Shown: positions 1,622 through 17,273 of the stretch, one piece after another
How positions within the stretch are numbered: position 1 is the stretch's first letter
How the letters are laid out: each line of letters begins with the position of its first letter
NCBI GenBank assembly: GCA_964568855.1
Contig: CAZMSD010000015.1
Location: 15,458-79,457 of the forward strand
Reading direction: 5' to 3'
DNA from: an uncultured Bacteroidaceae bacterium
GTDB lineage: Bacteria; CAIWAD01
Length of the DNA: 64,000 nucleotides
Notes under the pieces: model-generated
Seen by the model: only the letters and a program-made list of their open reading frames with translations
What the model was told of the DNA's origin: nothing
Databases searched by the model: none
Translations under genes and position numbers: made by a program

Positions 1622-3851
1622 TCTCCAGGGCCAGTCTGAAACCGACGTCGGCGGCGCGATACTCCAGTGGATAGGGCGCGGAACCGCCCGAACCGCGCAG
1701 CCAGGATGCGCCCGCGGCCAGCGGACCTGCGGGGCCGATCACCCATTCGCGGACTCCTCCCGTCGGGCGCTGCGCCCTGGGTCCGTTTCCCGATTTCTCG
1801 TCCATCACGACCAGGGCGGCTTGCGGCAGGATTCTCGAAGCTGTTACGGTCCCGGCGGGTGGGTTATCTCCGGCGCGGGCGCCGAGTGCTTTTTCCAGGT
1901 CCGCGAACTCTTCCTCCCGCAGCAGTCGATAGCAATCCCGGGCCTTCGTTTCCACGCCCAGATCGAGATCATATGCCGCGGATCTTCCCTCGCGCCGGTT
2001 CAGCCAGTCGCAGTAGGCCATCGCTTCCCGGGGACTCAGGTTGACCATCGGCAGTTCGGGACGCTCGAAATAATCCTCGAGCCCCTCGACGGGCAGCCGG
2101 GGGGGAAAGTCGCGCCCGCTGTCCCGGCAATACATCCGGTATTCCGCCACGCTGACTTCCCGTTGTGATACAGACAGGTTCTCCAGCGCGATCCAGGAGT
2201 CGTTGAGCCCGCTGACGGCGGCCCTGAGAGCGGGCGTCCAGCCGGAGCTGCGCCAGGTGCAGGCGCCGCGCGCGAAGTACTCCAGCAGAACCTGGGAAGG
2301 TGGACGGCGATCCACCAGTGCTCCCGCGCTCCAGTCCGCCCGAAGCAGCAGGCTGTCCCCGCCGGCCACGCGCAGCACCTCGACCCGGTCACGCAGCCAG
2401 GAATCCTCCGTGGCCCAGCTCAGGCGTACTCCCTTACCCGCCAGGTCGATCCTCAGATCGCCGGGCGGGCCCGGTTCGAGGCCCACGACCTTCCAGGGCG
2501 ACCATTCGCTCAGGCGATCCCCGTTCCGGGATCTCCAACGGCATTCGAATCTCCGGGTATCCGGCAGCGGCCGCAGCAGGTGGAACGCTGCAAAGACGCC
2601 GCGCGTCGCCCGTTCGGCCCGGCGGCAATCGATCTCCCAGGTCTCGGTCCATCCGCCGGGATCCGGCAACTCCGCCCGGATCAGCGTATCACCGGACGAA
2701 CTGAATACGAGCTCGAGGGGCGGCCGCCAGCGCAGGTCCACGCGGCCGGTCCAGACCGCCTTCCTCGCGCCTGCATCCCGGGCAAGCAGCTGGATCCACA
2801 AGGGTTTGAGCGGCAGGTCCCGCAACAGCACCGCGTTTCGGCTGAGAGAACCGCCTCCCGTGCTTCCTCGCCTGCCGAGCCACAGGATCTCGGTCTCCGC
2901 GGGAATCCGTCCTTCGGGGAAGACCAGCTCCAGTTCGCCGGGCGCCGGACGGTCCATCCGAGGCTCGAGAGATCGATCGCGGACTTCCCAGAGAATCGGC
3001 AAGGATCGGCTTCCCTGTTGGTCCCTGGAGGCCACGAGCAGCTCGCCGGGTGGTCCGAAAGCGACCATGTAGCGCGGTTGCTCGCCCCCCAGGGGCCGCA
3101 ACTCGGCCTCTCCGCGCAGCAGCAGCGGAACGCAGCCGGAGGGCAGTTCGAGCTCGATCCCTGAGGAATGGACGCTGAGCACTCGCGGCGGGGGTGGCAG
3201 GTCCGGAGCCTCGGGGAGCGCCAGTCCGGCGACACCCGCCGGCACTCCGGGCATCTCGCCGAGTTGATCCGCGGGAAGCGGATCCTCCCAGTCCCCCAGC
3301 CGAACCTCGCGGGCGCTTCCCGCCCACGAGACGGCAATCCGGTTCCAGTCCCCCGGCGGCAACTGGGCCCGGCCCTCCGCGGCGGGGAAGGTCAGCACCT
3401 CGCTCAGCCGGACGTCCCGATACAGGCTGACCCAAAGCCTGTCCAGCGGGCAGGCGGGCGGATCCCAATGCATCACATCGTCTTCCAGGCGCGGATTCAA
3501 TTCCGGCGGCCGGCGCGTCCAGATCCTCTCGGAACCGTAGACCGGCAGGCCGTTCTCAGGCTCGCGCCCGTGAAGCCGGAACCAGACCGTGCCCCCGGGC
3601 GGAGGTGCGGACCGGCGCAGCACGATTTCAGCGCCTGAATCTTCCAGGACCTGAACGGTGCGGAAACCCTCGCCCCGGTCCTCCTGCAGGGCGAAGAAGG
3701 AATCCGGGTCGATTCTGAGCAGCAGGCTGTCGCAGGAAACCGGTTCCACCCGGATCCGGCCGGTCCCGGGGGCTTCGTCGGCCGCGGCGGTCGTCGCGGC
3801 GAGCAGCAGGGCGCAGGCCAGGCCCGGGGCTCTCGGCGGGAGGGATTTCAT
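1611..3851 (-). CDS. secreted protein with a C-terminal FGE-sulfatase (SUMF1/GldJ-GldK-PorK family) domain
   Basis: 746 aa with signal peptide MKSLPPRAPGLACALLLAATTAAA. The C-terminus carries FGE-like motifs (PMVNLSPREAMAYCDWLN ... YRAADVGFRLA). The start overlaps the upstream gene stop by 4 nt. Confidence 0.6.
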   Translation of the reverse strand: MKSLPPRAPGLACALLLAATTAAADEAPGTGRIRVEPVSCDSLLLRIDPDSFFALQEDRGEGFRTVQVLEDSGAEIVLRRSAPPPGGTVWFRLHGREPENGLPVYGSERIWTRRPPELNPRLEDDVMHWDPPACPLDRLWVSLYRDVRLSEVLTFPAAEGRAQLPPGDWNRIAVSWAGSAREVRLGDWEDPLPADQLGEMPGVPAGVAGLALPEAPDLPPPPRVLSVHSSGIELELPSGCVPLLLRGEAELRPLGGEQPRYMVAFGPPGELLVASRDQQGSRSLPILWEVRDRSLEPRMDRPAPGELELVFPEGRIPAETEILWLGRRGSTGGGSLSRNAVLLRDLPLKPLWIQLLARDAGARKAVWTGRVDLRWRPPLELVFSSSGDTLIRAELPDPGGWTETWEIDCRRAERATRGVFAAFHLLRPLPDTRRFECRWRSRNGDRLSEWSPWKVVGLEPGPPGDLRIDLAGKGVRLSWATEDSWLRDRVEVLRVAGGDSLLLRADWSAGALVDRRPPSQVLLEYFARGACTWRSSGWTPALRAAVSGLNDSWIALENLSVSQREVSVAEYRMYCRDSGRDFPPRLPVEGLEDYFERPELPMVNLSPREAMAYCDWLNRREGRSAAYDLDLGVETKARDCYRLLREEEFADLEKALGARAGDNPPAGTVTASRILPQAALVVMDEKSGNGPRAQRPTGGVREWVIGPAGPLAAGASWLRGSGGSAPYPLEYRAADVGFRLALETIQ

Positions 3852-4570
3852 TTGCCCGGTGCGCCGACGTACACCGTGTCTACGACCTGGCTCTCGAGAA
3901 TCAGCAGGTCGTGCAGAACCTTATCGACGATGTAGGTGGTGTCCTGGCGCAACACTTCCACCACGTCCACCACGCGCCGTCTTTCCCTGACCGTTCCCAC
4001 GGGCAGGCCGCGGGCGTAGAGGCTGTCCGCCGTGTAATCCCAGACGCGGAAGAGCAGGCCCTCGCCGCCCATGTCGAGCGCCATCTCGAACTCGCCCTCG
4101 CCCAGGTTGTTGCGCGATGCTTCAAGCAGGTCGGCCAGCAGGGAAGCCACGGCGCGGTCGGCCTGCCGGAGCTCCCCCGCGGAGACGTCGCGCGGGGCGT
4201 GCAGTTCGCGGTTGGCCTCGAATTCCCAGTGGCGCATCCGCTCCTGCAGCTCCGCGCTCAGTGAGCGCAGCACGTGGATTCCGCCCTCCGGAAGAATGCG
4301 CAGGACGTCTCCCTCGCCGAATCCGTCGCCGCCCAGGTCGTGCAGCTCGAGTCTTTCGACGCCTGCCGGATCGACCGGAATCAATTGCTGGACCAGCAGT
4401 TCGCGTATTACACCCGGATCGGCGATGCCGGCCTCGAGATGCATCACGGGCCGGACAAGGGGCGCCTGCGCCTGCGCCGAACCGAAGCACAGCAGCGCCG
4501 CCAGGCAGGCGGCCCGGATCGCGCTTCGCCTGGCCGGGCCGAACCGCCCTGATCGGTTCGTTTCGCTCAT
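3848..4570 (-). CDS. hypothetical secreted protein
   Basis: An internal Met (MSETNRS..AACLAALLCFGSAQA) gives a signal peptide. ATGA overlap with the TPR gene stop at 4567. Confidence 0.5.
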   Translation of the reverse strand: MSETNRSGRFGPARRSAIRAACLAALLCFGSAQAQAPLVRPVMHLEAGIADPGVIRELLVQQLIPVDPAGVERLELHDLGGDGFGEGDVLRILPEGGIHVLRSLSAELQERMRHWEFEANRELHAPRDVSAGELRQADRAVASLLADLLEASRNNLGEGEFEMALDMGGEGLLFRVWDYTADSLYARGLPVGTVRERRRVVDVVEVLRQDTTYIVDKVLHDLLILESQVVDTVYVGAPGK

Positions 4571-6084
4571 CGCTTCAACTCCATGACCCGCTCCCATGAG
4601 CGCCGGGCTTCCGCGGCCCGATCCAGCCGCCGATAAACTTCGGTCAGCGCGGTGTGGATCTGGATCTGGTCGGCCCTGGTGCATTCGTGGTCCCTGTCAC
4701 AGCGATCCAGGGCGAGCTCCAGCCAGGTCAGTGCCTCCTTGGGACGGTTGATCAGCAGCGATCCGATTCGGGCCGCCAGCAGCGGGTAATAACGGTTGTC
4801 GCTGTCCACGGCCGCCAGGTACTGCTCGTAAGCCCGCAGAGGCTCCGCCGATTCGATCTCGGAGCCCAGGTTCAGCGTCATCAATCCTCGTGTGTCACGG
4901 ACCCGCCGGGCCAGGCTGTCGGGCAGCGACGCGGCGCGCGGATCCTCCAGCAGCTCGACCACACGGCCCAGGGCGAGTTCCTGCATCTCCAGCTTGTAGA
5001 ACTCCAGGTCCGCGAGGGCCAGCACGTTTCCGGCCAGCGCCTCGGACCGACGGCTGTTCTCGACGGCCTCCAGCAGGAGTTCGCGGGCCTCGATCTCGCG
5101 ACCCTGTTCGATCAGCTTCCAGGCCCGGTCGATGCGCAAGGCCTGGCTCAGGCTGCCGCCCGCGCGGTTGAGCCAGCGCCTGAGTTCGGCGATTTCCTTG
5201 AGTTCGCCCGCCGTCGCCAGGGGCTCCCACTCAGCCACGCTTTGCCTGAACACGTCCTCCCGGCCGGTGTCCATGGCCAGGCGCACGCGCTCCCTGAGGA
5301 TGAACACGAGGTGGCTGCGGCGACGCCCCACCGGACGTTCCGGACTGCCCCCCCGGTCCTCCCAGGCATAGGCGCGCAGGACGGACGCGGCCCTTCCGTA
5401 CTGCTCCAGCGCTTCGTCCTTTCTTCCCGTATCACGAAGCAGGTCCGCCAGATCCCAGTGCGCGAAATAGCTTGAAGGATCGAGCGCCAGCCGCTTGCGG
5501 ATCACCTCGATCGCCCGGTCGCGGTACTCGAGGCTGGCGTAGATCCGGCCCAGGTCCTCGAGCACGCCGCCCATGCTCTCGAGGACTCCGGCGTCCCATG
5601 GATTCGCCGCCAGGGCCTGCTCGAAGCGTCCCAGCGCCTCCACCAGCCGTCCGGCCACGCCGGTGCGGATTTCCTCGCGCAGGCCGGCGAGTTCGTCTAG
5701 ATCCATCTCGGAGGGATAGCGACCGCCCGTCAGGTCCAGCGCGTTCTGCATCTGCCTGAGCGCCTGCTCGTACAGGTCGAAGTAGGCCCGGGTGTCCGCG
5801 ACGGCCGAGCGGCGCAGCGAATCCAGCGCCAGCACGATCCAGGTCCGGTCCGCGATGGAGGCCCGGATCTCCTCGCCCTGGCGTTTCAATTCTTCGGCCA
5901 GCTCGCGCCGCTCGTCGTCCACCATGGCGCCCGACTCGCCGGCGGCGTCCCGCTCGGCCAGGATCCTGTCCGCGGTCCGCGTGATGCCCGGGGGGTCCCT
6001 GTCCTGGGCGTCCGCGGATGACGCGAGCAGGATCAGGACGGCCAGCAGCATCGCGGCCGGGCGAATCGTTCCGGTCCGGTTCAT
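4567..6084 (-). CDS. tetratricopeptide-repeat (TPR) protein, secreted
   Basis: Signal peptide MNRTGTIRPAAMLLAVLILLASSADA followed by repeated A/L/E/Y-rich TPR-like helices. Start codon overlaps the stop of the upstream gene (TAATG). Confidence 0.6.
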   Translation of the reverse strand: MNRTGTIRPAAMLLAVLILLASSADAQDRDPPGITRTADRILAERDAAGESGAMVDDERRELAEELKRQGEEIRASIADRTWIVLALDSLRRSAVADTRAYFDLYEQALRQMQNALDLTGGRYPSEMDLDELAGLREEIRTGVAGRLVEALGRFEQALAANPWDAGVLESMGGVLEDLGRIYASLEYRDRAIEVIRKRLALDPSSYFAHWDLADLLRDTGRKDEALEQYGRAASVLRAYAWEDRGGSPERPVGRRRSHLVFILRERVRLAMDTGREDVFRQSVAEWEPLATAGELKEIAELRRWLNRAGGSLSQALRIDRAWKLIEQGREIEARELLLEAVENSRRSEALAGNVLALADLEFYKLEMQELALGRVVELLEDPRAASLPDSLARRVRDTRGLMTLNLGSEIESAEPLRAYEQYLAAVDSDNRYYPLLAARIGSLLINRPKEALTWLELALDRCDRDHECTRADQIQIHTALTEVYRRLDRAAEARRSWERVMELKR

Positions 6085-6989
6085 TACAGACCCTCCAGGA
6101 ATTGCAGCAGCGTCGCGTGCAACGCTGCGGCGTCGTCCAGCCTGCTGTAACGCGCGATGATGGTCCGCGAGGCGCCTTCCCGGAACAGCTCGCCCCGCTT
6201 GAGCGACCTGAGCGCGCAGCCGTCGCCCGCCAGGACCATCACCAGCAGCTCGTCGCCCTTCTGCAGCAGCAGCGAAGCCTCTCCGGAGCCCTCCTCCAGG
6301 CAAAGGGTCGACTGCCAGCGATCGCGGCCCAGCATGATTTCCCCGCCCCTGGCCGGTTTCGCGCCGCAGCCCGCGAAGCGACGGAATTCGCCGCCGAGTT
6401 CCCGCACGGGCGATGCATGGTAATAGGCGACCAGCCGGTCCCAGTGGGTCGCCAGCTCGAGCCCCGGTTCTCCGCCCTCCCCAAGCGCCACGTCGCGCTC
6501 GGTGTCGAGCCGTCCGATCAGGGACCTGGAATCGCGCGTCCGGGTGTCCTCGGCCCGGGCCGGCAACTCGGGCAGGTCGGGCCGCTCGAACAGGCTCCGG
6601 TCGCCGAGTGTCACGCGGTTGTCGAAGCGCGAGCGATCTCTCCCGGGATCGCCTTCCAGGATGTCAAGCGCATCGCGGTCCCGGGCCAGACCCGGCAGGT
6701 AGCGCCGCTCCGGCGAATCGGCCGGCGACCTCTCCGTGACACGGGGCATGGCGCGCGGAATCCGCAGCTCCACGCGCTCGCGCATCCTTTCCCGCACGCG
6801 ATTCATGTGCGAAGGAGCCTGGTAGATCTGGCGGACCCAGGTCATCAATTCCGCGCCGGGGACTTCGACGCGCTGGGGGCGCTGGATCCTGAGCAGCGAG
6901 AGCGTCGAGTAGAACAGCAGCATCAGCAGCAGGCTGCCGCCCCATGCGATCTGCTGGATCCTGCCCCGGTTCAGTTCGAGACCGCTCAT
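6084..6989 (-). CDS. membrane-anchored protein, putative TonB-like energy transducer
   Basis: N-terminal transmembrane segment (IAWGGSLLLMLLFYSTLSLL), a charged Pro/Arg/Glu/Asp-rich linker and a C-terminal globular domain. Sits at the tonB position of the exbB-exbD-exbD-tonB-TPR arrangement. The start was verified as ATGA overlapping the exbD stop. Confidence 0.45.
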   Translation of the reverse strand: MSGLELNRGRIQQIAWGGSLLLMLLFYSTLSLLRIQRPQRVEVPGAELMTWVRQIYQAPSHMNRVRERMRERVELRIPRAMPRVTERSPADSPERRYLPGLARDRDALDILEGDPGRDRSRFDNRVTLGDRSLFERPDLPELPARAEDTRTRDSRSLIGRLDTERDVALGEGGEPGLELATHWDRLVAYYHASPVRELGGEFRRFAGCGAKPARGGEIMLGRDRWQSTLCLEEGSGEASLLLQKGDELLVMVLAGDGCALRSLKRGELFREGASRTIIARYSRLDDAAALHATLLQFLEGL

Positions 6990-7432
6990 GGCGACTCCGT
7001 CTCCCGCTCGGTATCCTTGATCCCGGCCTTGAATTCCAGGTTGCGATCGAGTTCGTAGAGCTCGCAGGCGTCCACCGCGTGAACAGCCGCCTGCACCGGC
7101 GCATCCGGCTCGACCTCTATATCCACGCCCGATAGTTCGTGCTGCTCCTTCAAGCGGCCCACCACAGCGGCCAGGGTGTCGGCTCCGGCGACTTCCCCGA
7201 GGCGCATCCGCAGTCCCAGCGAGCTCAACAGTTCCACCTGGAACTGCTCGCCGCCAGCCGCCGTGACCAGCAGTCGCCGCTCCTCCAGCCGCAGGGTGTC
7301 GAGAACGGCCTCCCACCCCGTGGGCAGCGGAATTCGCGTCCGCTCGTCGAGGTCGGCGATTCCCAGGAAGCCGATCAGGATGATCAGCACCACGTCGATC
7401 AGGCGTGTCACACTTCCCGCACGGACGTTCAT
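6986..7432 (-). CDS. exbD: biopolymer transport protein ExbD/TolR
   Basis: N-terminus RLIDVVLIILIGFLGIA is the typical ExbD/TolR transmembrane helix. 148 aa. Confidence 0.8.
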   Translation of the reverse strand: MNVRAGSVTRLIDVVLIILIGFLGIADLDERTRIPLPTGWEAVLDTLRLEERRLLVTAAGGEQFQVELLSSLGLRMRLGEVAGADTLAAVVGRLKEQHELSGVDIEVEPDAPVQAAVHAVDACELYELDRNLEFKAGIKDTERETESP

Positions 7433-7818
7433 GGGAACGCGATCTCCGTTTCCGGCCGCTCCAGCACTACTTCCAAGGCCACGGGCAGCTCCAGTCCGCG
7501 GCAGACGTTCAGCACCGCCGCAACTCCGGCGCCGGGCTGGTCCCGATCGACGCGCAGGCGCACGCGCTCGGAGCCCTGGGCCATGAATCCCGCCAGCACT
7601 TCCCGTAATCCCGCAGCATTGTCAGCCTCGACCCGGTCAGACCCGCAAATGAAGCCGCCCTCGGGCATGATTCCGACCACGATCCAGTCCTCGAAGTCGG
7701 GCGGCACGGCGGGCAGGTAAGCGGCCCGCGGCAGGTCGCGCTCGATGGAGCGGTCCACGTGGCTGATGGAAATGAAGCCGAAGAGCAGAATCAACACGAT
7801 GTCGATCAGCCTGATCAT
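7429..7818 (-). CDS. exbD: biopolymer transport protein ExbD/TolR (second copy)
   Basis: N-terminus MIRLIDIVLILLFGFISIS. 129 aa. 4-nt overlaps with both neighbouring genes. Confidence 0.8.
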   Translation of the reverse strand: MIRLIDIVLILLFGFISISHVDRSIERDLPRAAYLPAVPPDFEDWIVVGIMPEGGFICGSDRVEADNAAGLREVLAGFMAQGSERVRLRVDRDQPGAGVAAVLNVCRGLELPVALEVVLERPETEIAFP

Positions 7819-8624
7819 GCCTCGACCCTGTCACCGGCCCGCCGCTTGCGATCGATGTCCAGCGAGCCTTCCTGCAGCATGGCCTGCCTGATTTCAGTCA
7901 GCTTCTGGTATTGCCCGTCCAGCACGCCGTCGAAGTAATTGCGCACCAGGGTCAGTACGAGGTTCAGCAGCAGGCTGACGATGATGCCCACCAGGGTCGT
8001 GATCAGGGCCACTCCCATGCCGTGCAGGATCTTGTCCTTGTCCAGCGTGCCGCCGAAGAAGGTCTGAAACATGCCCAGGACGGTTCCCAGCAGGCCCAGC
8101 GCTCCGGCGCTGTCGGACAGGAAAGTCATCCAGTTCACGTAGGGCTTGAACCAGTCCTGGCGCACGGTCATGAAGCGCTCGATGTTCGCGCCCAGGCTGT
8201 CGTGGTTGCGCGAACTGATGAACTGGGCCAGCATGTCCCTGGCGCCCGCGGCCAGTTCGCTGGTGGGCTGCCCCTCCATGTCCGACAGCAGCTCGCGGGC
8301 GAGTTTGGCCCTGGCCGGCAGGCGGTGTATCACCTTGCTCCGACCGCGATCCACGTGCACCATCAGGACCCGCGCCACGCTGAGGGCGATTCCCACCAGT
8401 AGCAGTACGTAGATGGGATAGCAGATCCAGCCTCCCATCGCCAGAACATCCAGCACGGGGATGGACGCGGATTCCGCTCCCTGGGCCGCCGCCGCGGCCG
8501 GCAGGAGAGCGAGAACCAGCCCCGTTACAAGGCCCGGCGGAATTGGTGTGATTCCGGATCTCACGGCGGATCCTCCGTTCGTTTCGCAGGTCTCAGTCTT
8601 CATGTTAGCGCCCGTTGTTTGCAT
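7815..8624 (-). CDS. exbB: MotA/TolQ/ExbB proton-channel protein
   Basis: Transmembrane segments and the family motif LGLLGTVLGMFQTF. The N-terminal 40 aa resemble a signal peptide; an alternative start lies at 8603. Confidence 0.8.
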   Translation of the reverse strand: MQTTGANMKTETCETNGGSAVRSGITPIPPGLVTGLVLALLPAAAAAQGAESASIPVLDVLAMGGWICYPIYVLLLVGIALSVARVLMVHVDRGRSKVIHRLPARAKLARELLSDMEGQPTSELAAGARDMLAQFISSRNHDSLGANIERFMTVRQDWFKPYVNWMTFLSDSAGALGLLGTVLGMFQTFFGGTLDKDKILHGMGVALITTLVGIIVSLLLNLVLTLVRNYFDGVLDGQYQKLTEIRQAMLQEGSLDIDRKRRAGDRVEA

Positions 8625-8627
8625 CGC

Positions 8628-10346
8628 TTATTCCTGCATGATGATGTGGATCCCGTCCACTCCGGGAGGCAGCTCCTCCGCGGGATCCAGGGCCCGCAGG
8701 TGAACGTGTCTCACGCGGTGTACGACGTGGACCTCGGAATGCTCCTCCCCGACGGCGACGCCGGAGGAATCGAACAGCAGCAGGTCGACGCGGCCCGTCC
8801 CCGCATCCGGCAGCCCGCCGCGATCGTCGTACACGGGCAGCAGCAGCCGCTCCGGGGGAGCGCCCGCTCCCTCGACCCGGCTGGTGTGCCCGCCGGCGCC
8901 CCTGAACACCAGGCGCCAGGCGGAGACATGGCCCGCGAAGTCGTCGTCCAGCAGAACCCGCAATTCCAGGTTCTCCGGCACGGGAATCGTCGACCCGCTG
9001 GGGGGCAGCGCCCTCCGGGCGCCGACCCGCGCTTCGACCGGAGCGCCCGACAGCGCGGCCAGGTCCTCGATGCGCATGCTCCGCTCGCCGGCGTGGATCA
9101 CGGGAACCACGCCCCGCTCCCGCGCCATGGTTTCCAGTAGCGCAGTCAGCCGGTAGTACTCGCGAGAGTAGGTCTCGCGAACCACCTCGCCTCCCTGCGG
9201 TACCACGCGCTCTCCCTCGGGAAGCTGCGCGGCCAGCACGGACTCGAGCGGGATCTCGTCCGCCAGCTCCTGCGGCAGGTGCAGGTGCAGCTCCATCAGG
9301 TCCACCGTCGCCCGGGGCAGCGCCATCAGCACCGGGGCCCTGGCGGCGTCCCAGCGCCGTCCGAAGAGACCGCGCAGTCCCCCCCGGCCCAGGGAAGTCT
9401 CGCCGGGCGCGTACACGCCCGGACCGCCCGCCGGTCCGAACCTGCCGGGCGACAATCCACCGCCCAGGTCCAGCCTGTAGACCAGCCGGTGGCTGCTCCC
9501 GGCCCGGTCTGCGAAATCGCCGATGGGAAAAGTAAGCTCGTAAGAGCAGCTGTGGTGTTCCTCCCAGGCCGCGGACATGGACAGCGCGAATCCTTCCTCG
9601 CGCACCCTCCCGGCCAGCTCCACGCCGGGCAGCACCCGGTAACCGGCTTCCAGGCCCGGTCGCGGTTCCTCGATCAACTCATCGAGCAGACCGCCGTCGC
9701 TGCGATTGTAGGCCAGGTTGTCGAGCGTGAGACCCAGGCGCAAGGGGCCGCCGCTCCAGTGAAGCCCCAGGTACTCGCGCAGCGGGGCGCGCGGTTCGCT
9801 CCCTGAAAGCGCCAGGCTGGGCCGGTTGATGTGCTTCAGGCCCAGCCCCAGGCGCAGGCCGCCCAGGGGCGACCAGAACACTCCCGCGCCCAGCACGGGC
9901 TGGATCCGGTCGCTGCCGTTGCGGAACACGGGATCCTCCGTCACGCCCTCGCTGAAGCGCGAAGTGTTCCAGCCGAAATGCCGGAAGCCCAGCTCCAGGC
10001 CCAGCGACAGGTTGCCCAGCGGCCGGTAGGCCCAGTCTAGGGCGATTTCCGACTCGTTCATCAGGTCCGTGTCGCGGTGCAGCGCCAGCAGGGCCAAGTT
10101 CCAGCGAGGAATCGAGAAGCTGAATCCGCCCTGTCCGAAGGCGGCCGGGCTGTCGGCCAGTCCCGTGTGCAACAGCTTCCAGGTAACCTCGAAGGCCACC
10201 GGCTGCCAAACGGCGAGGGCCGGATTCACGCGCAGGCCGCTGTGGTCTTCCAGCACGGCGGGATTGCCATAGGCGGCCATTTCGGCGCGAGCGGTAATGG
10301 GAATCGCCAGCACCAGGGCGCAGGGGATCAGGCGGTCGAGTTTCAT
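8628..10346 (-). CDS. T9SS PorP/SprF-like outer-membrane protein fused to an additional C-terminal domain
   Basis: Signal peptide MKLDRLIPCALVLAIPITARA, then a region with beta-barrel-like alternating hydrophobic residues (LGLELGFRHF, YRLDLGGG). Lies immediately downstream of a type-B CTD protein, which is the established pairing. About 250 extra C-terminal residues of unknown function. Start verified as an ATGA overlap. Confidence 0.5.
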   Translation of the reverse strand: MKLDRLIPCALVLAIPITARAEMAAYGNPAVLEDHSGLRVNPALAVWQPVAFEVTWKLLHTGLADSPAAFGQGGFSFSIPRWNLALLALHRDTDLMNESEIALDWAYRPLGNLSLGLELGFRHFGWNTSRFSEGVTEDPVFRNGSDRIQPVLGAGVFWSPLGGLRLGLGLKHINRPSLALSGSEPRAPLREYLGLHWSGGPLRLGLTLDNLAYNRSDGGLLDELIEEPRPGLEAGYRVLPGVELAGRVREEGFALSMSAAWEEHHSCSYELTFPIGDFADRAGSSHRLVYRLDLGGGLSPGRFGPAGGPGVYAPGETSLGRGGLRGLFGRRWDAARAPVLMALPRATVDLMELHLHLPQELADEIPLESVLAAQLPEGERVVPQGGEVVRETYSREYYRLTALLETMARERGVVPVIHAGERSMRIEDLAALSGAPVEARVGARRALPPSGSTIPVPENLELRVLLDDDFAGHVSAWRLVFRGAGGHTSRVEGAGAPPERLLLPVYDDRGGLPDAGTGRVDLLLFDSSGVAVGEEHSEVHVVHRVRHVHLRALDPAEELPPGVDGIHIIMQE

Positions 10347-13300
10347 CTTGCCACCCCCACCTGGCCGCGTTGTATTACGCGGTTGCCGTCCAGCATCACG
10401 AAGGGATAGACTCCCGGCAGCAGCGGGTGCCCGCCTGGGGCGGCGTCCCACTCGTATCGCCTGTCGCCCGTGGGCAGGCTCCTCGCCAGAACGCGCCGCC
10501 CGTTGAGGTCGTAGATCTCCAGCCGGAAGCGCACGCTCGGCGGAAGATCGCCGAAATCGAATACGCAGCGGTCGTTGAAACCGTCGCCGTTGGGCGTGCA
10601 CACGTTGGGCGTCACGCCAACGGGCTGGACGAACAGGTCGACGCAGCCTTCGTGCTCGTTGTCGGCGGGGTCGTCCGCGGGATTGCCCGTGCTCAGCTCG
10701 ATCCGCCAGCAACTGCAGGCGCCCGCCAGGGGCAGTCCGACGGTCATGCTGGTGTCGAGTTCCACTCCCGCGGGCAGTTCCAGCCAGTCCCAGTCATGGC
10801 GCACTCGCTCCACTCCGTCCAGCTCGCCCGCCAGGGTCAGCGGTCCTGCATATCCCCAGCCGCCGGCGTCGATGCGCAGAACGAATTCCAGCGTATCTCC
10901 GTAATACATCCGCGTGGGCGGCGCATCCAGCAGCGACAGGCCGGGATCTCCCCCCGCCTGGCGCAACGTGAACACTCCCGTCACCTCGGTCGCCAGTTGC
11001 ATCGCGGTGGAAGTGTCGGCCGCGCTGAAGCGCCAGTGCAACTGCCCGCCGAAGCGCAGTGAGTCTCCCAACTGCGGCGCCAGCGAGATCGCGGCCGAGA
11101 GATGGCCCTCGTCGAAGGAGGCCTGCGCCAGCGGATCCTGGTGCTGGGCGTCGGGGCTGACGGTCAGGCTTCCCGAGAAGGCGTCGCCGTCCACTTCCTC
11201 CGCCACCCAGTTCAGGAGGTACTCCGCACCCTCGTGCAGCTCGGTCACGCCGGCGGGAGCCTCCACCAGCCGCGGCGGATCGTCCGCAGGCTCGATCTCG
11301 AGCGCCAGTGTGTCCAGGTGGCTGCCGCCCCCCGGATCGTCCAGGCGGAAACGCAACCCCAGGCCCGGGAAGAGGGCCGAGTTCACGTCCCCGGCCGGCT
11401 GCAGCAGCACCGCCAGGGGATCCGTCGCCGTAATCTGGATCACGCTGTCCGGGTCCTGGGCGCCGTGTCCGAGCAGCGCTTCGATCTCCGCCTGCCAGCC
11501 CTCGGTGTCCGCGCCCGGGTAGAAGGTCCAGTCCCGGAAGTCCAGCAGGTAGTCCTGGTCTTCGACCATCGGCACGGCGGGCGGCCTGGTGTAGAGCACC
11601 AGGCGACCCTCGGCCCGCGCCAGGTAACCCTCCGGCGTGCCCAGGTCCAGGATCGAGAAGCGCCACCACAGCTCACCGCTGTAGTCCGCCGAATCCCCCA
11701 CCTGGGGAGTCCAGCTCCAGGTCCAGCTGCCGCCTTCCGGCACGTCCACCGTCTGCACGGGCTGCGTGTGCTCCGCGTCCAGGCTGAGCAGGAACTCGCG
11801 CTCCGTGGAATCTCCGTCAACTTCGACCCAGTTGAATTCCAGCTCCAGCAGGGCCCCCTCGCGGGCACCGCCCTCCTCCGGCGGGAACAGCAGCACCACG
11901 GGCGGATCGTCCGCCGGCAGGATCGTCACGGTCAGTGTATCACGAGTCTCGTTGTGCGAAGAATCGGTGAGCAGCAGCGCCAGGCCCAGCTCGGGATACA
12001 GGTCGCTGTTGGCGTGGGACTGGGGCTCCAGATTCAGCTCGAAGCCCGCCTGCCAGCCGACCTGCAGCACGGAATCGGGCAGCTGTCCCTCCGTGCCGAC
12101 GACTCCTTCGACCGCCAGCAGGACCTGGTCCAGCGGGCCGTCCGGGTCCTCGATCAGCGGCCCCAGGTCCACCACCTGGGCCTGGTCCTCGTTCAGGGAA
12201 GGAAGCCCGCCCGTGAAGTAGGGCGGGTAGGGGCATTCCAGCAGCCCGGTCAGATCAACGTGAACAGTGTCGCCGAAATCCGCCGGCGCGTTGCCGGCGA
12301 GTCGCAGTATGGCCGATTGCAGCCAGGGCCAGGGCTCCTCCATCGGGGGGCAGAAGTACAGCGGCAGGGCCGCGCTGTCTCCCGGCTGGATGTTCAGCGT
12401 ATCGACGGTGACACAGAAGCTCTCGGGCGCGCTGGTGCTGTCGTCCCCGGATGGCAGGACCTCCGGCAGGCCCACCCGCAGCCAGGCATCGCCCTCGTTC
12501 GAAATCCACAGGGTATCCCCGGGACAGCCGTCCTCGCAGTCCTCGTGCCCGCCGCAACTCGTTCCCAGGAAGAGCGAGTCCCCGGAGGCGGTCATTTCGG
12601 AGAAGCCCGCCTGGGCGCACAGCGCCACCGCCTCGTTGTAGTGCTGTTGACAGCCCGGCACGTTCCAGGCCACGCTGAACTGGCCCGAACCGTAGCACGA
12701 ATCATCGACCGCCTCGGCGTGATACGTCACCTCCACCAGCAGGCTGTCGCCCGGAAACAGCGTCGTTACTCCGGGATTCGACCAGGAGAAGGGAAAACCT
12801 GGATCCACCGGCGGATCCGAGAGGGTCAGCTCGATTTCGGCGGCCACCGACCGATTGTGGAATTCGACCGTCCGGACAGGTTCCTCGCCCACCGGCACCT
12901 GCAGGTAATACAAGGTGTCGGGAACGGTCAACTGGTGCACTCCGACCACCTCGTCCAGATACAGGTTCAACCGGCCGTCCTGGTAAAGCACCGCCATGTC
13001 GTGATCACCGTCGGCGTTGGCGTCGAAAACGCGCAGGCGGCTGGGCGGAGCGGGAATCGCCCCGTCGGACAGGAGATCGACGCCCTCGGGGCTGCGCGGA
13101 TCCTCGTGCAGGCGGATGCCCGAATGCCCGGCGAAGAGCACGCCGCCGCCCGCGATGGATTCCACGTCGTGCAGCGGCTCGGGGTAGGTCCAGGTGGAAA
13201 CGTCGACCCGGTCCTCCACCGGATCGATGTTGCTGAAGACGACCACCCGGCCGTCCTCGCGCCAGGCGATAACGTCCGGCATGTACTGGGGATCGAAGTC

Positions 13301-14431
13301 GTTCCAGCGCTCCAGGTGTTGCAGTCCTTCGGCCACGGCGGTTTCCGCCGTCCATACGATATGCATCTGCTCGCCGTCCCAGCCGGCCATCTTCAACGGC
13401 TCGGGCGACGATTCGAGCAGCAGCAGGTAGTCCGTGTCGCCTTCCGCCGGGTACTGCTGGCCGTGCAGCATCAGCATGTCCAGCGGGTCGCCCAGGCCGC
13501 TGAGCAGTACCTCGGCCGAGTCGGGCAGCAATCCCGAGCAGTCGCCGGCGTTGGGATAGAGAATCAGCTCTCCTCCGCGGTTGGCCACCAGCAGGTCCTG
13601 GCACAGGTGATCCGGCCGGGCGCGATAGGCCAGCGCCAGCTTGGGCGATTCGGTGAAGATCTCCTCCTCGAGGACCATCTGCTCGAACTGGGGAACGTCG
13701 TCCGGGCCCGTGCGCAGGAACAGTGTGATCTGCTCCTCCTGGCCGCCCGTGTTGAGCACGAAACCTTGGCCCTGGTGCCCGCTGAGCGAGATTGTCGACA
13801 TGCGCCGGTCCACCGACCAGTTGGACAGCAGCTCCCCTCCCAGGCCCTGGGCCTGGGGCGTGCCGGCGCAGTCCACCAGGCCCAGCATCACGATCCGGTC
13901 GCGGGCCACCAGCGTCAGGTCCACCATCCCGTCGCGGTCGAGCTCCATCGGCAGCAGGTCCACCATCTCGCTGGCCTCGCCCTGCAGCTGGAGGGAGTAG
14001 GGCTGGCTTTCGCCGATCCACTCGCAGTCGGAACAGACGAAGGGCCACTCGGTGTGATACATCTCCAGGGTTACGGTGTCGGCGACGCTCGAGTCCGCCT
14101 TCAGCTCGATGCGCACGCGCGAGGCCGTGATCCAGGGATAATTGTCCACCAGCGGGATCAGGAAAACGGTTTCGTAGGGTGGCTGGCCCACGGGGGAGGG
14201 GTTCCAGTAGAGAAACCCGCGCTGCTCGTCGCGGATCTCGATCAACTGCCCGAGCTGCACGAACTCGTCGACGGACATGGGCGGCGAAAGCTGCAGCTGG
14301 ATGTTGTCCAGCGGGCCCAGCGGGTCGCCCGGCGCGGGGGTCACCTGCGAGATCCGCGCCTGCGCGACCTGCAGCACGCAGCAGAGCGAAAGCGCAGGCA
14401 CGAAGCGGAAAAACCTGGAACGATCAACCAT
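10343..14431 (-). CDS. giant cell-surface adhesin with T9SS type-B C-terminal domain (SprB-like)
   Basis: 1362 aa after the signal peptide MVDRSRFFRFVPALSLCCVLQVAQA. Repeated ...ADDPP... Ig-like modules. C-terminus CTPNGDGFNDRCVFDF...EIYDLNGRRV matches the gliding-motility-associated type-B CTD. Confidence 0.8.
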   Translation of the reverse strand: MVDRSRFFRFVPALSLCCVLQVAQARISQVTPAPGDPLGPLDNIQLQLSPPMSVDEFVQLGQLIEIRDEQRGFLYWNPSPVGQPPYETVFLIPLVDNYPWITASRVRIELKADSSVADTVTLEMYHTEWPFVCSDCEWIGESQPYSLQLQGEASEMVDLLPMELDRDGMVDLTLVARDRIVMLGLVDCAGTPQAQGLGGELLSNWSVDRRMSTISLSGHQGQGFVLNTGGQEEQITLFLRTGPDDVPQFEQMVLEEEIFTESPKLALAYRARPDHLCQDLLVANRGGELILYPNAGDCSGLLPDSAEVLLSGLGDPLDMLMLHGQQYPAEGDTDYLLLLESSPEPLKMAGWDGEQMHIVWTAETAVAEGLQHLERWNDFDPQYMPDVIAWREDGRVVVFSNIDPVEDRVDVSTWTYPEPLHDVESIAGGGVLFAGHSGIRLHEDPRSPEGVDLLSDGAIPAPPSRLRVFDANADGDHDMAVLYQDGRLNLYLDEVVGVHQLTVPDTLYYLQVPVGEEPVRTVEFHNRSVAAEIELTLSDPPVDPGFPFSWSNPGVTTLFPGDSLLVEVTYHAEAVDDSCYGSGQFSVAWNVPGCQQHYNEAVALCAQAGFSEMTASGDSLFLGTSCGGHEDCEDGCPGDTLWISNEGDAWLRVGLPEVLPSGDDSTSAPESFCVTVDTLNIQPGDSAALPLYFCPPMEEPWPWLQSAILRLAGNAPADFGDTVHVDLTGLLECPYPPYFTGGLPSLNEDQAQVVDLGPLIEDPDGPLDQVLLAVEGVVGTEGQLPDSVLQVGWQAGFELNLEPQSHANSDLYPELGLALLLTDSSHNETRDTLTVTILPADDPPVVLLFPPEEGGAREGALLELEFNWVEVDGDSTEREFLLSLDAEHTQPVQTVDVPEGGSWTWSWTPQVGDSADYSGELWWRFSILDLGTPEGYLARAEGRLVLYTRPPAVPMVEDQDYLLDFRDWTFYPGADTEGWQAEIEALLGHGAQDPDSVIQITATDPLAVLLQPAGDVNSALFPGLGLRFRLDDPGGGSHLDTLALEIEPADDPPRLVEAPAGVTELHEGAEYLLNWVAEEVDGDAFSGSLTVSPDAQHQDPLAQASFDEGHLSAAISLAPQLGDSLRFGGQLHWRFSAADTSTAMQLATEVTGVFTLRQAGGDPGLSLLDAPPTRMYYGDTLEFVLRIDAGGWGYAGPLTLAGELDGVERVRHDWDWLELPAGVELDTSMTVGLPLAGACSCWRIELSTGNPADDPADNEHEGCVDLFVQPVGVTPNVCTPNGDGFNDRCVFDFGDLPPSVRFRLEIYDLNGRRVLARSLPTGDRRYEWDAAPGGHPLLPGVYPFVMLDGNRVIQRGQVGVAR

Positions 14432-15305
14432 CGCTTCCACCTGTATCACCGGAATCTTTGAGCTTGTCGATGAAGCGCAGCCACAGGGCCGTATCGCGGT
14501 AACCGCGGGGTCGCAGGTCCTCGAAGGCGCCGCGGGCCTCGGCGTAACGGCCCGTGCGCGCCAGGGCGACGGCCCGCAGGTAGCGCTCGTCGCGCCCCCG
14601 GGGAGGCCGCCGGGTGAACTCGAGCAGCAGCCGGGACCAGGCACCGGCCGCACCCAGCGCTTCGAGGTCGCCGGTATCCAGATCGCCGACCGCCGTCCGG
14701 TATGCCTCGCAGATGTCGTTCGTCCGATCGGGATGCCTCAGCAGCAGGCGAACCAGGTCCCGATGATCCGGATCGGCTCCCGGGCGCCTGAGCAGCGCCA
14801 GGCAGGCCTCCGCGCCGCCGGCCCTCAGGGCCAGGTCCAGGCCTTCGCGGGGCAGCGAGGCGAAGCGCTCGAAGATGCTGTCGGGCGCCGTTTCCGGCGA
14901 CCTGCCCGTCTCCTCGGCTGCGGCCGCCAGGGCCCGCACCCAGCATTCGGCCATCGCGCGGCCGCCTCCCAGAGCGCGGTCCAGCAATCGGTAGATCGAA
15001 TCCCGTTCCGCCGGCGGGCGGGCGTCCGCCCAGCGGCAGAGATCCCGCCGCCAATCCGCCGGCAACCGGCCTTCCAGGGTTTCGGCCGCCGCCCGCAGGT
15101 CGCCGTCCTGCCAGCGCAGCCAGGCCAGCTGTCGCAATTCCTCGCTCGAGGGCCGGCCGCCGGCGGCGCGCAGCGATTCGAGCTGCTGCTCCAGCGCCTC
15201 TCTCGCGCGGGTCGTTTCCCCGGCGATCAGCAGGTCGCCCGGCGAGGGAGTCAGGTCGACGCAGGCGACGGTCCCTGCCAGGACAATCGGAACCAGCGCC
15301 CGCAT
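14424..15305 (-). CDS. alpha-helical (TPR-like) lipoprotein or secreted protein
   Basis: Signal/lipobox MRALVPIVLAGTVACVD. Ala/Arg/Leu-rich helices. 8-nt overlap with the adhesin gene start. Confidence 0.5.
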   Translation of the reverse strand: MRALVPIVLAGTVACVDLTPSPGDLLIAGETTRAREALEQQLESLRAAGGRPSSEELRQLAWLRWQDGDLRAAAETLEGRLPADWRRDLCRWADARPPAERDSIYRLLDRALGGGRAMAECWVRALAAAAEETGRSPETAPDSIFERFASLPREGLDLALRAGGAEACLALLRRPGADPDHRDLVRLLLRHPDRTNDICEAYRTAVGDLDTGDLEALGAAGAWSRLLLEFTRRPPRGRDERYLRAVALARTGRYAEARGAFEDLRPRGYRDTALWLRFIDKLKDSGDTGGSDG

Positions 15306-15345
15306 AATGTGGATCCGCCGGACTCTCATCCTTCCTACGAAATGC

Positions 15346-17262: not shown

Positions 17263-17273
17263 TCCGTCCCCGT

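What the first reader, a model, noticed from the sequence alone, without database searches (positions are those of the whole stretch)
8628..10346. PorP/SprF-like outer-membrane protein with an unexplained 250-aa C-terminal domain
PorP/SprF proteins are normally about 300-aa beta-barrels. This one has a barrel-like N-terminal half and then a further 250 aa or so (...VIHAGERSMRIEDLAALSGAPVEARVG...RVDLLLFDSSGVAVGEEHSEVHVVHRV...) with no motif I can recognise. Its stop is 4 nt from the exbB start. The extra domain could be the adaptor that links the barrel to the Ton-like motor downstream.
Basis: inference. Interest (0 to 1): 0.55.

Follow-up and report, generated by a model that had tools for sequence, protein, structure and literature searches.

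The report
Long PorP/SprF barrel beside ExbBD motor
This is a real outer-membrane carrier protein of the type IX secretion family that carries an unusual 280-residue tail on its periplasmic side and always sits between a giant surface protein and a Ton-like proton motor, which suggests, but does not prove, a new way of powering a surface adhesin.

Summary
Window 8628..10346 (minus strand) is one intact 572-aa gene, identical in two independent public assemblies. Residues 1-293 are a signal peptide, an NPA plug motif and a predicted 14-strand barrel distantly related to PorP/SprF. Residues 294-572 are a conserved extension: a disordered linker, an unassigned alpha/beta region, an Ig-like beta-sandwich and a conserved terminal strand motif (VDGIHIIMQE).

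The extension is not OmpA-like, TonB-like or ExbD-like, and it lacks the twin cysteines that tie SprF to GldK.

The main new result concerns gene context. In all 12 examined contexts of this ExbB subfamily (ExbB identity down to 34%, GC 43-72%), a long PorP/SprF (552-677 aa) lies directly upstream of exbB. In the 11 where the upstream region is visible, a giant CHU_C (type B T9SS signal) protein precedes it.

Best reading: the barrel is the carrier and anchor of the upstream type B cargo, and its periplasmic module is the coupling site for the dedicated ExbB/ExbD-type motor. The gene linkage is shown. Physical coupling is inferred. I rate it a new variant of a known kind, of moderate to high interest.

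The parts
14424..15305 (-). First gene of the conserved cluster: a ~293-aa protein with weak TPR matches.
   Evidence: Weak TPR hits. Called as 293 aa in L013. A ~290-330-aa TPR gene holds the same position in L001, L008, L015 and L016, and a longer 729-aa TPR gene does in L010.
10343..14431 (-). 1362-aa secreted giant protein, the putative type B T9SS cargo or adhesin. Its stop overlaps the start of the barrel gene (ATGA).
   Evidence: The CHU_C hit is E=2.8e-4, 21.4 bits, below the cutoff of 27, and there is an ASH-like hit. Equivalents in L008 and L010 carry FG-GAP, ASH and CARDB domains and score 35-39 bits on CHU_C, above the cutoff.
10394..10612 (-). CHU_C-like (type B) C-terminal sorting domain of the upstream protein, residues 1274-1346.
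   Evidence: The motifs TPNGDGFND ... LEIYDLNGRRV ... WDAA..PLLPGVYPFVM are visible in the translation.
8628..10346 (-). The gene in question: a 572-aa long PorP/SprF-type outer-membrane protein.
10284..10346 (-). Sec signal peptide, residues 1-21 (MKLDRLIPCALVLAIPITARA|E).
   Evidence: Read directly from the sequence. The hydrophobic N-terminus is conserved in all orthologues.
10197..10283 (-). N-terminal segment with the invariant RxNPALAxWxP motif, residues 22-50. This is the NPA-type plug segment typical of FadL and PorP/SprF barrels.
   Evidence: R39, N41, P42, A43, L44, A45, W47 and P49 are invariant. N41 and P42 remain invariant when the distant relatives are added. The plug role is inferred from established knowledge of FadL and PorP.
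9468..10196 (-). 14-strand beta-barrel, residues 51-293.
   Evidence: The AF2 model has 14 strands, with 10-residue block mean pLDDT mostly 80-91 in the strands. The best Foldseek PDB matches are PorV (8gl6_F, 6h3i_F), FadL and OmpG. The PF11751 match covers residues 110-182.
9333..9467 (-). Gly/Pro/Arg-rich disordered linker, residues 294-338.
   Evidence: pLDDT is below 50 over residues 297-322. The region varies in length and has gaps among orthologues.
8979..9332 (-). Unassigned alpha/beta region, residues 339-456: a hairpin (ELH motif), a helix (TYSxxY..L..LE), then a beta-alpha unit (PVIHxGE..R.EDLA.L.G).
   Evidence: E352, L353, H354, T392, S394, P415, V416, H418 and G420 are invariant. 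Model confidence is low to moderate. No Pfam, PDB-sequence or Foldseek match covers this region. It is colinear with the distant relatives.
8700..8978 (-). Ig-like/FN3-like beta-sandwich, residues 457-549.
   Evidence: 10-residue block mean pLDDT is 79-91 over most of the domain in the full-length model and up to 94 in the C-terminal-only model. Foldseek gives only generic FN3, PKD and CBM sandwiches, about 90 aligned residues at E~4e-4. The profile weakly matches tandem He_PIG Ig repeats of giant proteins. The equivalent domain in L010 hits FlgD_ig at E=1.2e-3. W477 and G516 are invariant across all lineages.
8631..8699 (-). C-terminal tail, residues 550-572: a variable spacer followed by the conserved terminal strand motif VDGIHIIMQE (8631..8660).
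   Evidence: The tail is unstructured in both models, pLDDT 30-40. Even so, D564 is invariant and H567 nearly so. Similar termini occur in distant relatives: ADKIGLILSK, AQRIELLLDQ, AKRLEIHLDQ, PDEVQLLIKN and IEDFRLILNRKRY.
7815..8624 (-). MotA/TolQ/ExbB-family proton-channel protein, 269 aa, starting 3 nt after the barrel gene's stop.
   Evidence: PF01618 at E=1.7e-11. This subfamily is always preceded by a long PorP.
7429..7818 (-). ExbD/TolR-like protein 1, 129 aa.
   Evidence: PF02472 at E=1.7e-5, 25.3 bits against a cutoff of 25.4.
6986..7432 (-). ExbD/TolR-like protein 2, 148 aa.
   Evidence: PF02472 at E=8.5e-5.
6084..6989 (-). 301-aa protein with an N-terminal membrane anchor, a charged Arg/Pro/Glu-rich linker and a C-terminal globular part. 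It has TonB/TolA-like architecture only.
   Evidence: No Pfam, NCBIfam or PDB-profile hit. The alignment with orthologues shows a conserved anchor and C-terminal part. A 343-374-aa gene holds the same position in L008, L009, L011, L012, L015 and L016.
4567..6084 (-). 505-aa secreted TPR protein.
   Evidence: TPR_12 at E=8.9e-14. It holds a conserved position in all clusters.
3848..4570 (-). 240-aa protein of unknown function with a hydrophobic N-terminal segment (possible signal peptide). It holds a conserved position in the cluster.
   Evidence: No family hit. A 219-277-aa gene holds the same position in L001-L003, L008, L009, L015 and L016.
1611..3851 (-). 746-aa secreted protein with a C-terminal FGE-sulfatase-like domain. 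It is the last gene of the cluster in the Delongbacteria-type loci only.
   Evidence: PF03781 at E=5.8e-5, exactly at the cutoff of 23.3 bits. The profile hits FGE-fold PDB entries weakly: 7spq at E=1.1e-3 and FGE at E~0.25. It is not conserved in the distant clusters.

Best explanation
The gene encodes an outer-membrane protein built from two parts. The first is a PorP/SprF-type 14-strand barrel with an N-terminal NPA plug segment. The second is a ~280-residue periplasmic C-terminal module: a flexible linker, a lineage-specific alpha/beta region, an Ig-like beta-sandwich and a conserved terminal strand motif.

As for SprB/SprF and PG1035/PorP, the barrel is most likely the dedicated carrier and surface anchor of the giant CHU_C (type B T9SS signal) protein encoded immediately upstream with overlapping stop and start codons.

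Canonical SprF uses a short Cys-X-Cys tail to bind the GldK track. This protein instead carries a folded periplasmic module. I propose that this module is the handle through which the dedicated ExbB/ExbD(/ExbD) proton motor encoded directly downstream transmits force to the barrel-cargo complex. Transmission would run through the membrane-anchored ~300-aa protein and/or the TPR proteins. The conserved terminal strand would dock by beta-strand addition, as a TonB box docks on TonB. The force could eject the carrier from the translocon, move the adhesin, or change its conformation.

Shown: the gene is real and single, its domain layout, the conservation of the extension, and the invariant gene linkage across divergent lineages. 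Inferred: the periplasmic location (an even strand number, by analogy with SprF), the carrier role, and all physical coupling to the motor.
For: The gene is single and intact. The identical 1719 nt are called as 572 aa in two independent assemblies, and GC3 is 0.85-0.88 throughout.

The extension is conserved. There are 13 full-length orthologues at 37-48% identity, 559-586 aa, all with the extension.

The barrel is PorP/SprF-type. The model has 14 strands and its best PDB match is PorV. PF11751 is hit by 8 of 14 orthologues and scores 32-47.5 bits, above the cutoff, in the distant colinear relatives. NCBI names one of those relatives PorP/SprF.

The upstream protein has a CHU_C-like end, and its equivalents score above the cutoff in L008 and L010. 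The organism also has at least one type A CTD cargo, so a T9SS is present.

The gene linkage is invariant. All 12 contexts examined for this ExbB subfamily (identity down to 34%, GC 43-72%) have a long PorP (552-677 aa) immediately 5' of exbB-exbD. These are the window itself (=L013/L014), L001, L002, L003/L004, L007 (barrel gene only, contig ends there), L008, L009, L010, L011, L012, L015 and L016.

The extensions align colinearly to the very C-terminus: hhalign covers 235 columns at E=2.8e-4. The terminal motif recurs although AF2 leaves it unstructured.

Liu et al. [quoted passage not shown] Gorasia et al. 2022 (PMC9143113) show that PorP-like barrels anchor type B cargo.
Against: The 301-aa membrane-anchored protein shows no detectable similarity to TonB or TolA, so the TonB-box analogy rests on architecture alone.

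The window protein and its upstream partner both score below the curated Pfam and NCBIfam cutoffs.

Within the Delongbacteria-type genomes the unrelated selA-djlA-selB genes are syntenic too, so synteny there is weak evidence. Only the distant loci carry weight.

The hhalign probability for homology of the extensions is modest (41%). One distant relative (L010) lacks the terminal motif. The middle region is poorly modelled (pLDDT 30-65).
Confidence: 0.5

Rival explanations
1. The extension is a static periplasmic anchoring or scaffolding module. It would act as a fused functional equivalent of PorE-like partners, holding the barrel-cargo complex in place against the cell wall, the TPR proteins or other envelope structures. 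The neighbouring ExbBD genes would then serve a different task, such as uptake or envelope maintenance.
For: Many porP-like genes sit next to porE-like genes whose products tether PorP to peptidoglycan (PMC9143113). Ig-like sandwiches very similar in sequence pattern occur next to OmpA domains in P0022. No TonB-like domain was detected in the cluster.
Against: The extension has no OmpA_C, LysM, SPOR, TPR or WD40 signal. This reading does not explain why this ExbB subfamily is never seen without the long PorP in 12 of 12 contexts across divergent lineages, often with gaps of only 3-30 nt.
Confidence: 0.25
2. The whole cluster is a Ton-like import system. The long barrel would be its outer-membrane gate, energised like a TonB-dependent transporter. 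The giant upstream protein would be a surface substrate-capture protein rather than a mobile adhesin.
For: The barrel resembles FadL/PorV-type barrels, which conduct or gate ligands, and it has an NPA plug motif. ExbB/ExbD with TPR proteins are classically associated with uptake. The terminal strand motif resembles a TonB box in character.
Against: A 14-strand barrel is small. TonB boxes lie at the N-terminus of 22-strand transporters. The barrel belongs to PorP/SprF, whose known role is as a carrier and anchor of type B cargo (PMC9143113, PMC12635249). No substrate-binding or inner-membrane transporter genes are in the cluster.
Confidence: 0.1
3. The extension has no dedicated function. It would be a lineage-specific decoration, or an annotation or assembly artefact such as a fusion of two genes.
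For: Model confidence is low for about 40% of the extension, and no known domain is found.
Against: The same sequence occurs in independent assemblies, one coding frame runs throughout, there are 28 invariant columns in the extension, and the extension is conserved at 17-20% overall identity in other lineages.
Confidence: 0.03

Closest known systems
SprF (Flavobacterium johnsoniae) and PorP (Porphyromonas gingivalis), Pfam PF11751 / TIGR03519
   Same: A 14-strand outer-membrane barrel with an N-terminal NPA-type segment. It is encoded directly downstream of a protein with a type B (CHU_C) T9SS signal. Its C-terminus faces the periplasm, where SprF is attached to the force-transmitting track. 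porP itself lies directly upstream of the motor genes porKLMN.
   Different: It is about twice as long. It has a folded ~280-aa C-terminal module instead of a short tail, and no conserved cysteine: four orthologues have none at all. The neighbouring motor genes are ExbB/ExbD-type, not GldL/GldM. Sequence similarity is marginal and below the curated cutoffs for the window protein.
PorV / FadL-family 14-strand barrels (PDB 8gl6_F, 6h3i_F, 1t16)
   Same: These are the best structural matches of the predicted barrel. PorV is likewise a T9SS carrier protein.
   Different: TM-scores are only 0.33-0.35 on the query, identity is 10-13%, and there is no equivalent of the C-terminal module.
TonB-dependent transporter / TonB / ExbB-ExbD energy transduction
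   Same: An outer-membrane barrel is encoded with an ExbB/ExbD-family proton motor and a membrane-anchored protein with a long charged linker. A short conserved strand-like motif lies on a flexible periplasmic segment of the barrel protein, which is how a TonB box behaves.
   Different: The barrel has 14 strands, not 22. The motif is at the extreme C-terminus, not the N-terminus. No TonB_C domain is detectable. The likely output is handling of a surface protein rather than import.
PorE-type periplasmic partners of PorP-like barrels
   Same: A periplasmic module containing a beta-sandwich that is associated with a PorP-like barrel.
   Different: PorE is a separate lipoprotein with TPR, beta-propeller, CRD and OmpA_C domains. 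None of these is detectable in the extension.
Myxococcus Agl-Glt gliding machinery (from my own knowledge, not tested here)
   Same: A TolQ/TolR/ExbBD-type motor, TonB/TolA-like linker proteins, several TPR proteins and outer-membrane barrels cooperate to act on a surface adhesin.
   Different: No sequence relationship was shown. The phylum is different, and the adhesin there is not a T9SS type B cargo.

Membership tests
PorP/SprF (PF11751, TIGR03519) | The sequence matches the family model above the curated cutoff. | tested here: inconclusive
   Window protein: PF11751 scores 19.3 bits against a cutoff of 22.3 (E=9e-4), and TIGR03519 scores 25.6 against 90.55. Of the 14 orthologues, 8 hit PF11751 at E<=0.01, best 1.3e-6. 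Distant relatives that are colinear and share the same gene context score 32, 37.5 and 47.5 bits, above the cutoff.
PorP/SprF (PF11751, TIGR03519) | A 14-strand outer-membrane beta-barrel with an N-terminal NPA-type segment. | tested here: met
   The AF2 model has 14 strands between residues 51 and 293. Foldseek's best match is PorV, followed by FadL. The RxNPALAxW motif is invariant. This rests on a prediction, not a solved structure.
PorP/SprF (PF11751, TIGR03519) | Encoded next to, and usually just downstream of, a protein with a type B (CHU_C/TIGR04131) C-terminal sorting domain. | tested here: met
   The upstream 1362-aa gene overlaps by 4 nt. Its CHU_C hit is 21.4 bits, below the cutoff of 27. 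The equivalents in L008 and L010 score 35.2 and 39.3 bits, and there are weak or faint hits in L002, L003, L015 and L016.
PorP/SprF (PF11751, TIGR03519) | A single-domain protein of about 300 aa. | tested here: not met
   This protein is 572 aa and relatives are 552-677 aa. The extension spans residues 294-572.
SprF subgroup (track-attached carriers, Liu et al. 2025) | A conserved Cys-X-Cys motif in a short periplasmic C-tail that disulfide-bonds to GldK. | tested here: not met
   There is no conserved cysteine anywhere in the extension, and P0006, P0007, P0009 and P0012 contain no cysteine at all. The motif is defined in PMC12635249.
OmpA-like / peptidoglycan-binding C-terminal domains | A match to OmpA_C (PF00691) or similar models. 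| tested here: not met
   There is no Pfam hit for any of the 14 C-terminal segments even at E<=10, and none in the distant relatives. hhalign against an OmpA_C domain gives E=0.47 over 14 columns.
TonB-dependent energy transduction (TonB box / TonB_C) | A TonB_C domain protein is present in the system, and a TonB box binds it. | tested here: not met
   The membrane-anchored ~300-370-aa proteins of the clusters give no Pfam, NCBIfam or PDB-profile hit. Binding of the terminal motif cannot be tested with these tools.
MotA/TolQ/ExbB - ExbD/TolR motor (downstream genes) | Matches to PF01618 and PF02472. | tested here: met
   PF01618 scores 44.4 bits, above the cutoff. PF02472 scores 25.3 and 23.1 bits, just under the cutoff of 25.4. 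There are clear ExbD hits in L008, L011, L015 and L016.

The most novel reading that the evidence does not exclude
These uncultured lineages (Delongbacteria and several others) possess a previously undescribed envelope machine. In it, an ExbB/ExbD-type 5:2 motor, rather than GldL/GldM with a GldK/GldJ track, is mechanically coupled to a T9SS type B carrier barrel through the barrel's own periplasmic C-terminal module. The machine would move, tension or eject a giant FG-GAP/ASH surface adhesin. It would be either an independent solution to, or an evolutionary relative of, the Bacteroidota gliding and T9SS energy chain.
Probability: 0.25. Interest if true: 0.8.

Novelty: new variant of a known kind. 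Interest (0 to 1): 0.6.

Why it matters
How mechanical energy reaches T9SS carrier proteins and gliding adhesins was clarified only in 2025, for Bacteroidota: a disulfide link from the SprF tail to the GldK track. This cluster is a second, different arrangement. The carrier's periplasmic end has grown into a folded module, and the genes beside it encode a Ton/Tol-type motor. If the coupling is real, three things follow:
- T9SS carriers would be shown to plug into different motors.
- A compact 9-10-gene system would be available for studying force transmission across the periplasm.
- It would bear on the origin of the T9SS/gliding energy chain outside Bacteroidota.

If the coupling is not real, the result is still a defined new subfamily of PorP/SprF with a conserved, unassigned periplasmic domain.

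Tried and rejected
Ideas tested and rejected:
- Frameshift or two genes. Rejected: identical sequence in independent assemblies, a single coding frame, and colinear orthologues.
- OmpA-like or other common periplasmic domain. Rejected.
- The beta-alpha unit 'PVIHAGE..R.EDLA' is ExbD/TolR-like. hhalign against both ExbDs of the window gave nothing.
- SprF-type twin-cysteine attachment. Rejected: there are no conserved cysteines.
- The 301-aa downstream protein is TonB or TolA. No evidence beyond its architecture.
- The 746-aa FGE-sulfatase-like protein is a GldK/GldJ/PorK equivalent. It gives only a borderline FGE-fold signal, no GldJ/GldK NCBIfam hit, and is not conserved in the distant clusters. 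I do not rely on it.

Searches that were uninformative or unavailable:
- A profile search with the barrel alone (A3) returned nothing, not even the orthologues.
- Literature searches for PorP together with ExbD, and for Delongbacteria, found no description of this cluster.
Full report
**1. The observation**

The feature is a minus-strand gene at window 8628..10346. Its ATG at 10346 overlaps the stop of the upstream 1362-aa gene (ATGA). Its TAA stop at 8630-8628 is followed by GCG and then the ATG of a MotA/ExbB gene at 8624.

The mechanical ORF extends to an upstream TTG (694 aa), but three lines of evidence favour the 572-aa product:
- It begins with a typical signal peptide (MKLDRLIPCALVLAIPITARA|E).
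- It is the product called on two independent public assemblies that carry the identical 1719 nt (L013 from ENA and L014 from Logan).
- It matches the length of 13 orthologues (559-586 aa, 37-48% identity, 94-99% coverage).

GC at third codon positions is 0.85-0.88 in one frame over the barrel, the linker and the extension. The 'two genes separated by a frameshift' alternative is therefore excluded. The protein's own entry was not returned only because its 90% cluster is represented by a 46-aa fragment.

**2. Anatomy**

The AF2 model built on the 14-sequence alignment (mean pLDDT 67, pTM 0.58) shows four parts:
- 14 beta-strands between residues 51 and 293, with 10-residue block mean pLDDT mostly 80-91 in the strands.
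- A disordered Gly/Pro/Arg-rich linker (residues 297-322).
- A poorly defined alpha/beta region (residues 339-456).
- A confident beta-sandwich (residues 459-549).

A second model of residues 296-572 alone gave the same picture.

Foldseek against PDB matched the barrel best to PorV, the T9SS carrier (8gl6_F at E=3.5e-9, and 6h3i_F), then to FadL and OmpG. The sandwich matched only generic FN3, PKD and CBM-type domains at E~4e-4 over about 90 residues. Nothing matched the middle region.

An even number of strands puts both termini on the same side of the membrane. By analogy with SprF, whose C-tail is periplasmic (PMC12635249), the extension should be periplasmic. This is an inference.

The segment before the barrel carries an invariant RxNPALAxWxP motif, the NPA-type plug signature of FadL and PorP/SprF barrels (established knowledge).

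**3. Is it PorP/SprF?**

For the window protein alone the answer is marginal. PF11751 gives E=9e-4 and 19.3 bits against a cutoff of 22.3. TIGR03519 gives 25.6 bits against 90.55.

At family level the case is better. Eight of 14 orthologues hit PF11751 (best 1.3e-6). Distant relatives that are colinear with it and sit in the same gene context score 32-47.5 bits, above the cutoff. NCBI names one of them PorP/SprF.

The upstream 1362-aa protein ends in a CHU_C-like (type B) sorting domain. The hit is weak in the window (21.4 bits against 27), with the motifs TPNGDGFND, LEIYDLNGRRV and WDAA..LLPGVYPFVM visible. It is above the cutoff in L008 and L010 (35.2 and 39.3 bits), where the protein also carries FG-GAP, ASH/HYDIN-type Ig and CARDB domains.

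The pairing of type B cargo with a dedicated PorP-like barrel is the known rule (PMC9143113; PMC12635249). The organism also has type A cargo. Window 26525..28243 scores 33 bits on Por_Secre_tail and 41 bits on TIGR04183, both above their cutoffs. A second candidate lies at 21774..23150.

**4. The extension**

It is conserved in every homologue, with 28 invariant columns and 30-47% identity to the window sequence.

A profile of the extension was searched against 1.84 billion representative proteins. The whole module was found only in six clusters, all of them orthologues, one a fragment. Positions 160-250 gave additive weak matches to tandem He_PIG-type Ig repeats of giant proteins.

There is no Pfam hit for any of the 14 extensions at E<=10, and no PDB sequence hit.

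Specific ideas were tested and failed:
- ExbD/TolR-like: hhalign E~0.45.
- OmpA_C-like: E=0.47.
- SprF-type twin cysteines: no conserved Cys, and four orthologues have no Cys at all.

The last ~23 residues are unstructured in both models, yet they end in a strongly conserved motif with D564 invariant and H567 nearly so: V-D-G-I-H-I-I-M-Q-E in the window and D-R-I-H-I-H-L-D-E in orthologues.

**5. The decisive context result**

Within the Delongbacteria-type genomes the gene order is: selA, djlA, selB, [TPR], giant protein, long PorP, exbB, exbD, exbD, ~290 aa, TPR ~500 aa, ~230 aa, ~670-746 aa. This order is conserved. Because unrelated genes (selA, djlA, selB) are syntenic as well, it says little on its own.

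I therefore searched with the ExbB protein and looked at its most distant relatives (34-41% identity). Every locus examined shows the same core:
- L008, from a hydrothermal vent (GC 43%).
- L009.
- L010.
- L011.
- L015, from a 789-kb contig.
- L016.
- L012, from the metagenome scan.

That core is: a ~300-aa TPR protein (729 aa in L010), a ~1070-1160-aa FG-GAP/ASH/CARDB/CHU_C protein, a long PorP_SprF protein of 552-677 aa, MotA/ExbB, one or two ExbD, a membrane-anchored protein of 343-374 aa, a TPR protein of ~520 aa, and a protein of 230-277 aa. In L011 the upstream ORF runs off the contig, but it is visibly the C-terminal end of such a long PorP.

Counting the window and its orthologous loci, 12 of 12 contexts have the long barrel immediately 5' of exbB.

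The distant long PorPs share only 17-20% identity with the window protein, but they align colinearly through the extension. The shared elements are the hairpin, the 'TYSxxY' helix, the beta-alpha unit, the Ig-like sandwich with invariant Trp and Gly (weak FlgD_ig hit in L010, E=1.2e-3), and the terminal motif. That motif reads ADKIGLILSK, AQRIELLLDQ, AKRLEIHLDQ, PDEVQLLIKN and IEDFRLILNRKRY, and only L010 lacks it.

Profile-profile comparison of the two sets of extensions aligns 235 columns end to end at E=2.8e-4, with a probability of 41%. This is modest statistically but consistent with homology given the identical position and context.

In GTDB species representatives the close family was found in only three genomes: a Candidatus Delongbacteria chromosome and two MAGs with doubtful labels. 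Candidatus Delongiibacteriota is a candidate phylum.

**6. Mechanism proposed**

Shown:
- A single gene and its domain layout.
- Conservation of the extension.
- Invariant linkage of [type B cargo]-[long PorP]-[ExbB-ExbD...].

Inferred, in three steps:
- (a) The barrel is the carrier and anchor of the upstream giant protein. This rests on the well-documented SprB/SprF and PG1035/PorP precedents.
- (b) The extension is periplasmic.
- (c) The extension is the site where the dedicated ExbB/ExbD-type motor acts on the barrel-cargo complex, through the membrane-anchored ~300-aa protein and/or the TPR proteins. The flexible, conserved terminal strand would dock by beta-strand addition, as a TonB box does on TonB.

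Liu et al. 2025 showed that the short periplasmic tail of SprF is exactly the point of attachment to the moving GldK track, and that carrier ejection from the translocon is the energy-requiring step. Here the twin cysteines are absent and a folded module plus a Ton-like motor are present instead. This is what one would expect of an alternative coupling solution.

I put the overall confidence at about 0.5. The gene and its layout are about 0.9, the carrier role about 0.7, and the motor coupling about 0.45.

**7. Rivals**

- A static anchoring or scaffolding module, functionally like a fused PorE partner, with the ExbBD genes doing something else (0.25). This reading explains the Ig-like domain but not the invariant linkage.
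- A Ton-like import system with the barrel as its gate (0.1).
- A functionless decoration or an artefact (0.03). This is contradicted by the conservation.

**8. Comparison and novelty**

The protein works like SprF or PorP as far as the barrel and the cargo pairing go. It fails two features of the canonical family: the single-domain ~300-aa format, and the twin-Cys tail of the SprF subgroup. On its own it also scores below the curated cutoffs.

The gene order recalls porP-porK-porL-porM-porN, with ExbB/ExbD in the place of PorL/PorM. The only FGE-fold (PorK-like) candidate is the 746-aa last gene. It is borderline, gave no GldJ/GldK hit, and is not conserved in the distant clusters, so I do not build on it.

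Literature searches found no description of a long PorP/SprF linked to ExbBD. These cover open-access papers only.

I classify the finding as a new variant of a known kind. It is a real, conserved feature whose proposed function is interesting but untested.

**9. Limits**

- No complex prediction was possible.
- One profile search was uninformative.
- The taxonomic identity of the distant loci is unknown.
- Whether these genomes carry gldKLMN and sprA could not be checked.

Noticed in passing
window 26525..28243 (-): A 572-aa protein with a T9SS type A C-terminal sorting domain. Por_Secre_tail scores 33.1 bits against a cutoff of 27, and TIGR04183 scores 41 against 23. The organism therefore has classical T9SS cargo as well.
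   Followed up: partly
window 21774..23150 (-): The C-terminal ~70 residues of this 458-aa ORF match the CTD part of the T9SS-dependent M6-like model (E=3e-8). It is probably a second type A cargo.
   Followed up: no
window 1611..3851 (-): The 746-aa last gene of the cluster has a borderline FGE-sulfatase-like C-terminal domain, the fold family of GldJ, GldK and PorK. It is conserved in the Delongbacteria-type loci only, and gave no GldJ/GldK NCBIfam hit.
   Followed up: partly
window 15346..19577 (-) and 19602..21167 (-): The selenocysteine genes selB (15346..17262), a DjlA-like J-protein gene (17274..18053) and selA (18063..19577), plus a DUF6029 protein, lie directly upstream of the cluster. 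They are syntenic with it in all Delongbacteria-type loci. Within that group, gene order is therefore conserved regardless of function.
   Followed up: partly
window ~24000..36000 and ~42000..44000: GC content drops from about 0.67-0.69 to 0.58-0.61, and to 0.577 at 42-44 kb, with a strong AT-skew swing at 34-38 kb and 42-44 kb. These may be islands or differently composed genes.
   Followed up: no
window 34805..38341 (-), 43921..46242 (+), 56125..59013 (-): An 1178-aa DUF4175 protein, a heparinase II/III-like protein and a 962-aa patatin-like phospholipase. None is related to the finding.
   Followed up: no
L015 170..2314 and 14985..19221; L016 406..2559 and 14721..19203: In two distant clusters the conserved core is flanked upstream by a VIT-VWA-FlgD_ig protein. 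Downstream lie an 870-aa TPR/Peptidase_MA_2 protein, DUF4159 and a MoxR-type AAA ATPase, which are Bat/aerotolerance-like genes.
   Followed up: no
L009 and L012: These two distant clusters have a single ExbD gene instead of two, and their long PorP proteins are close relatives of each other. The number of ExbD genes therefore varies within the system.
   Followed up: no
P0022 (916 aa): An OmpA-family protein with VWA domains carries repeated Ig-like segments whose sequence pattern (W.L.V..ADG.V....G.G.P..L.VPL) closely resembles the terminal sandwich of the extension. This type of sandwich therefore also occurs next to peptidoglycan-binding domains.
   Followed up: partly
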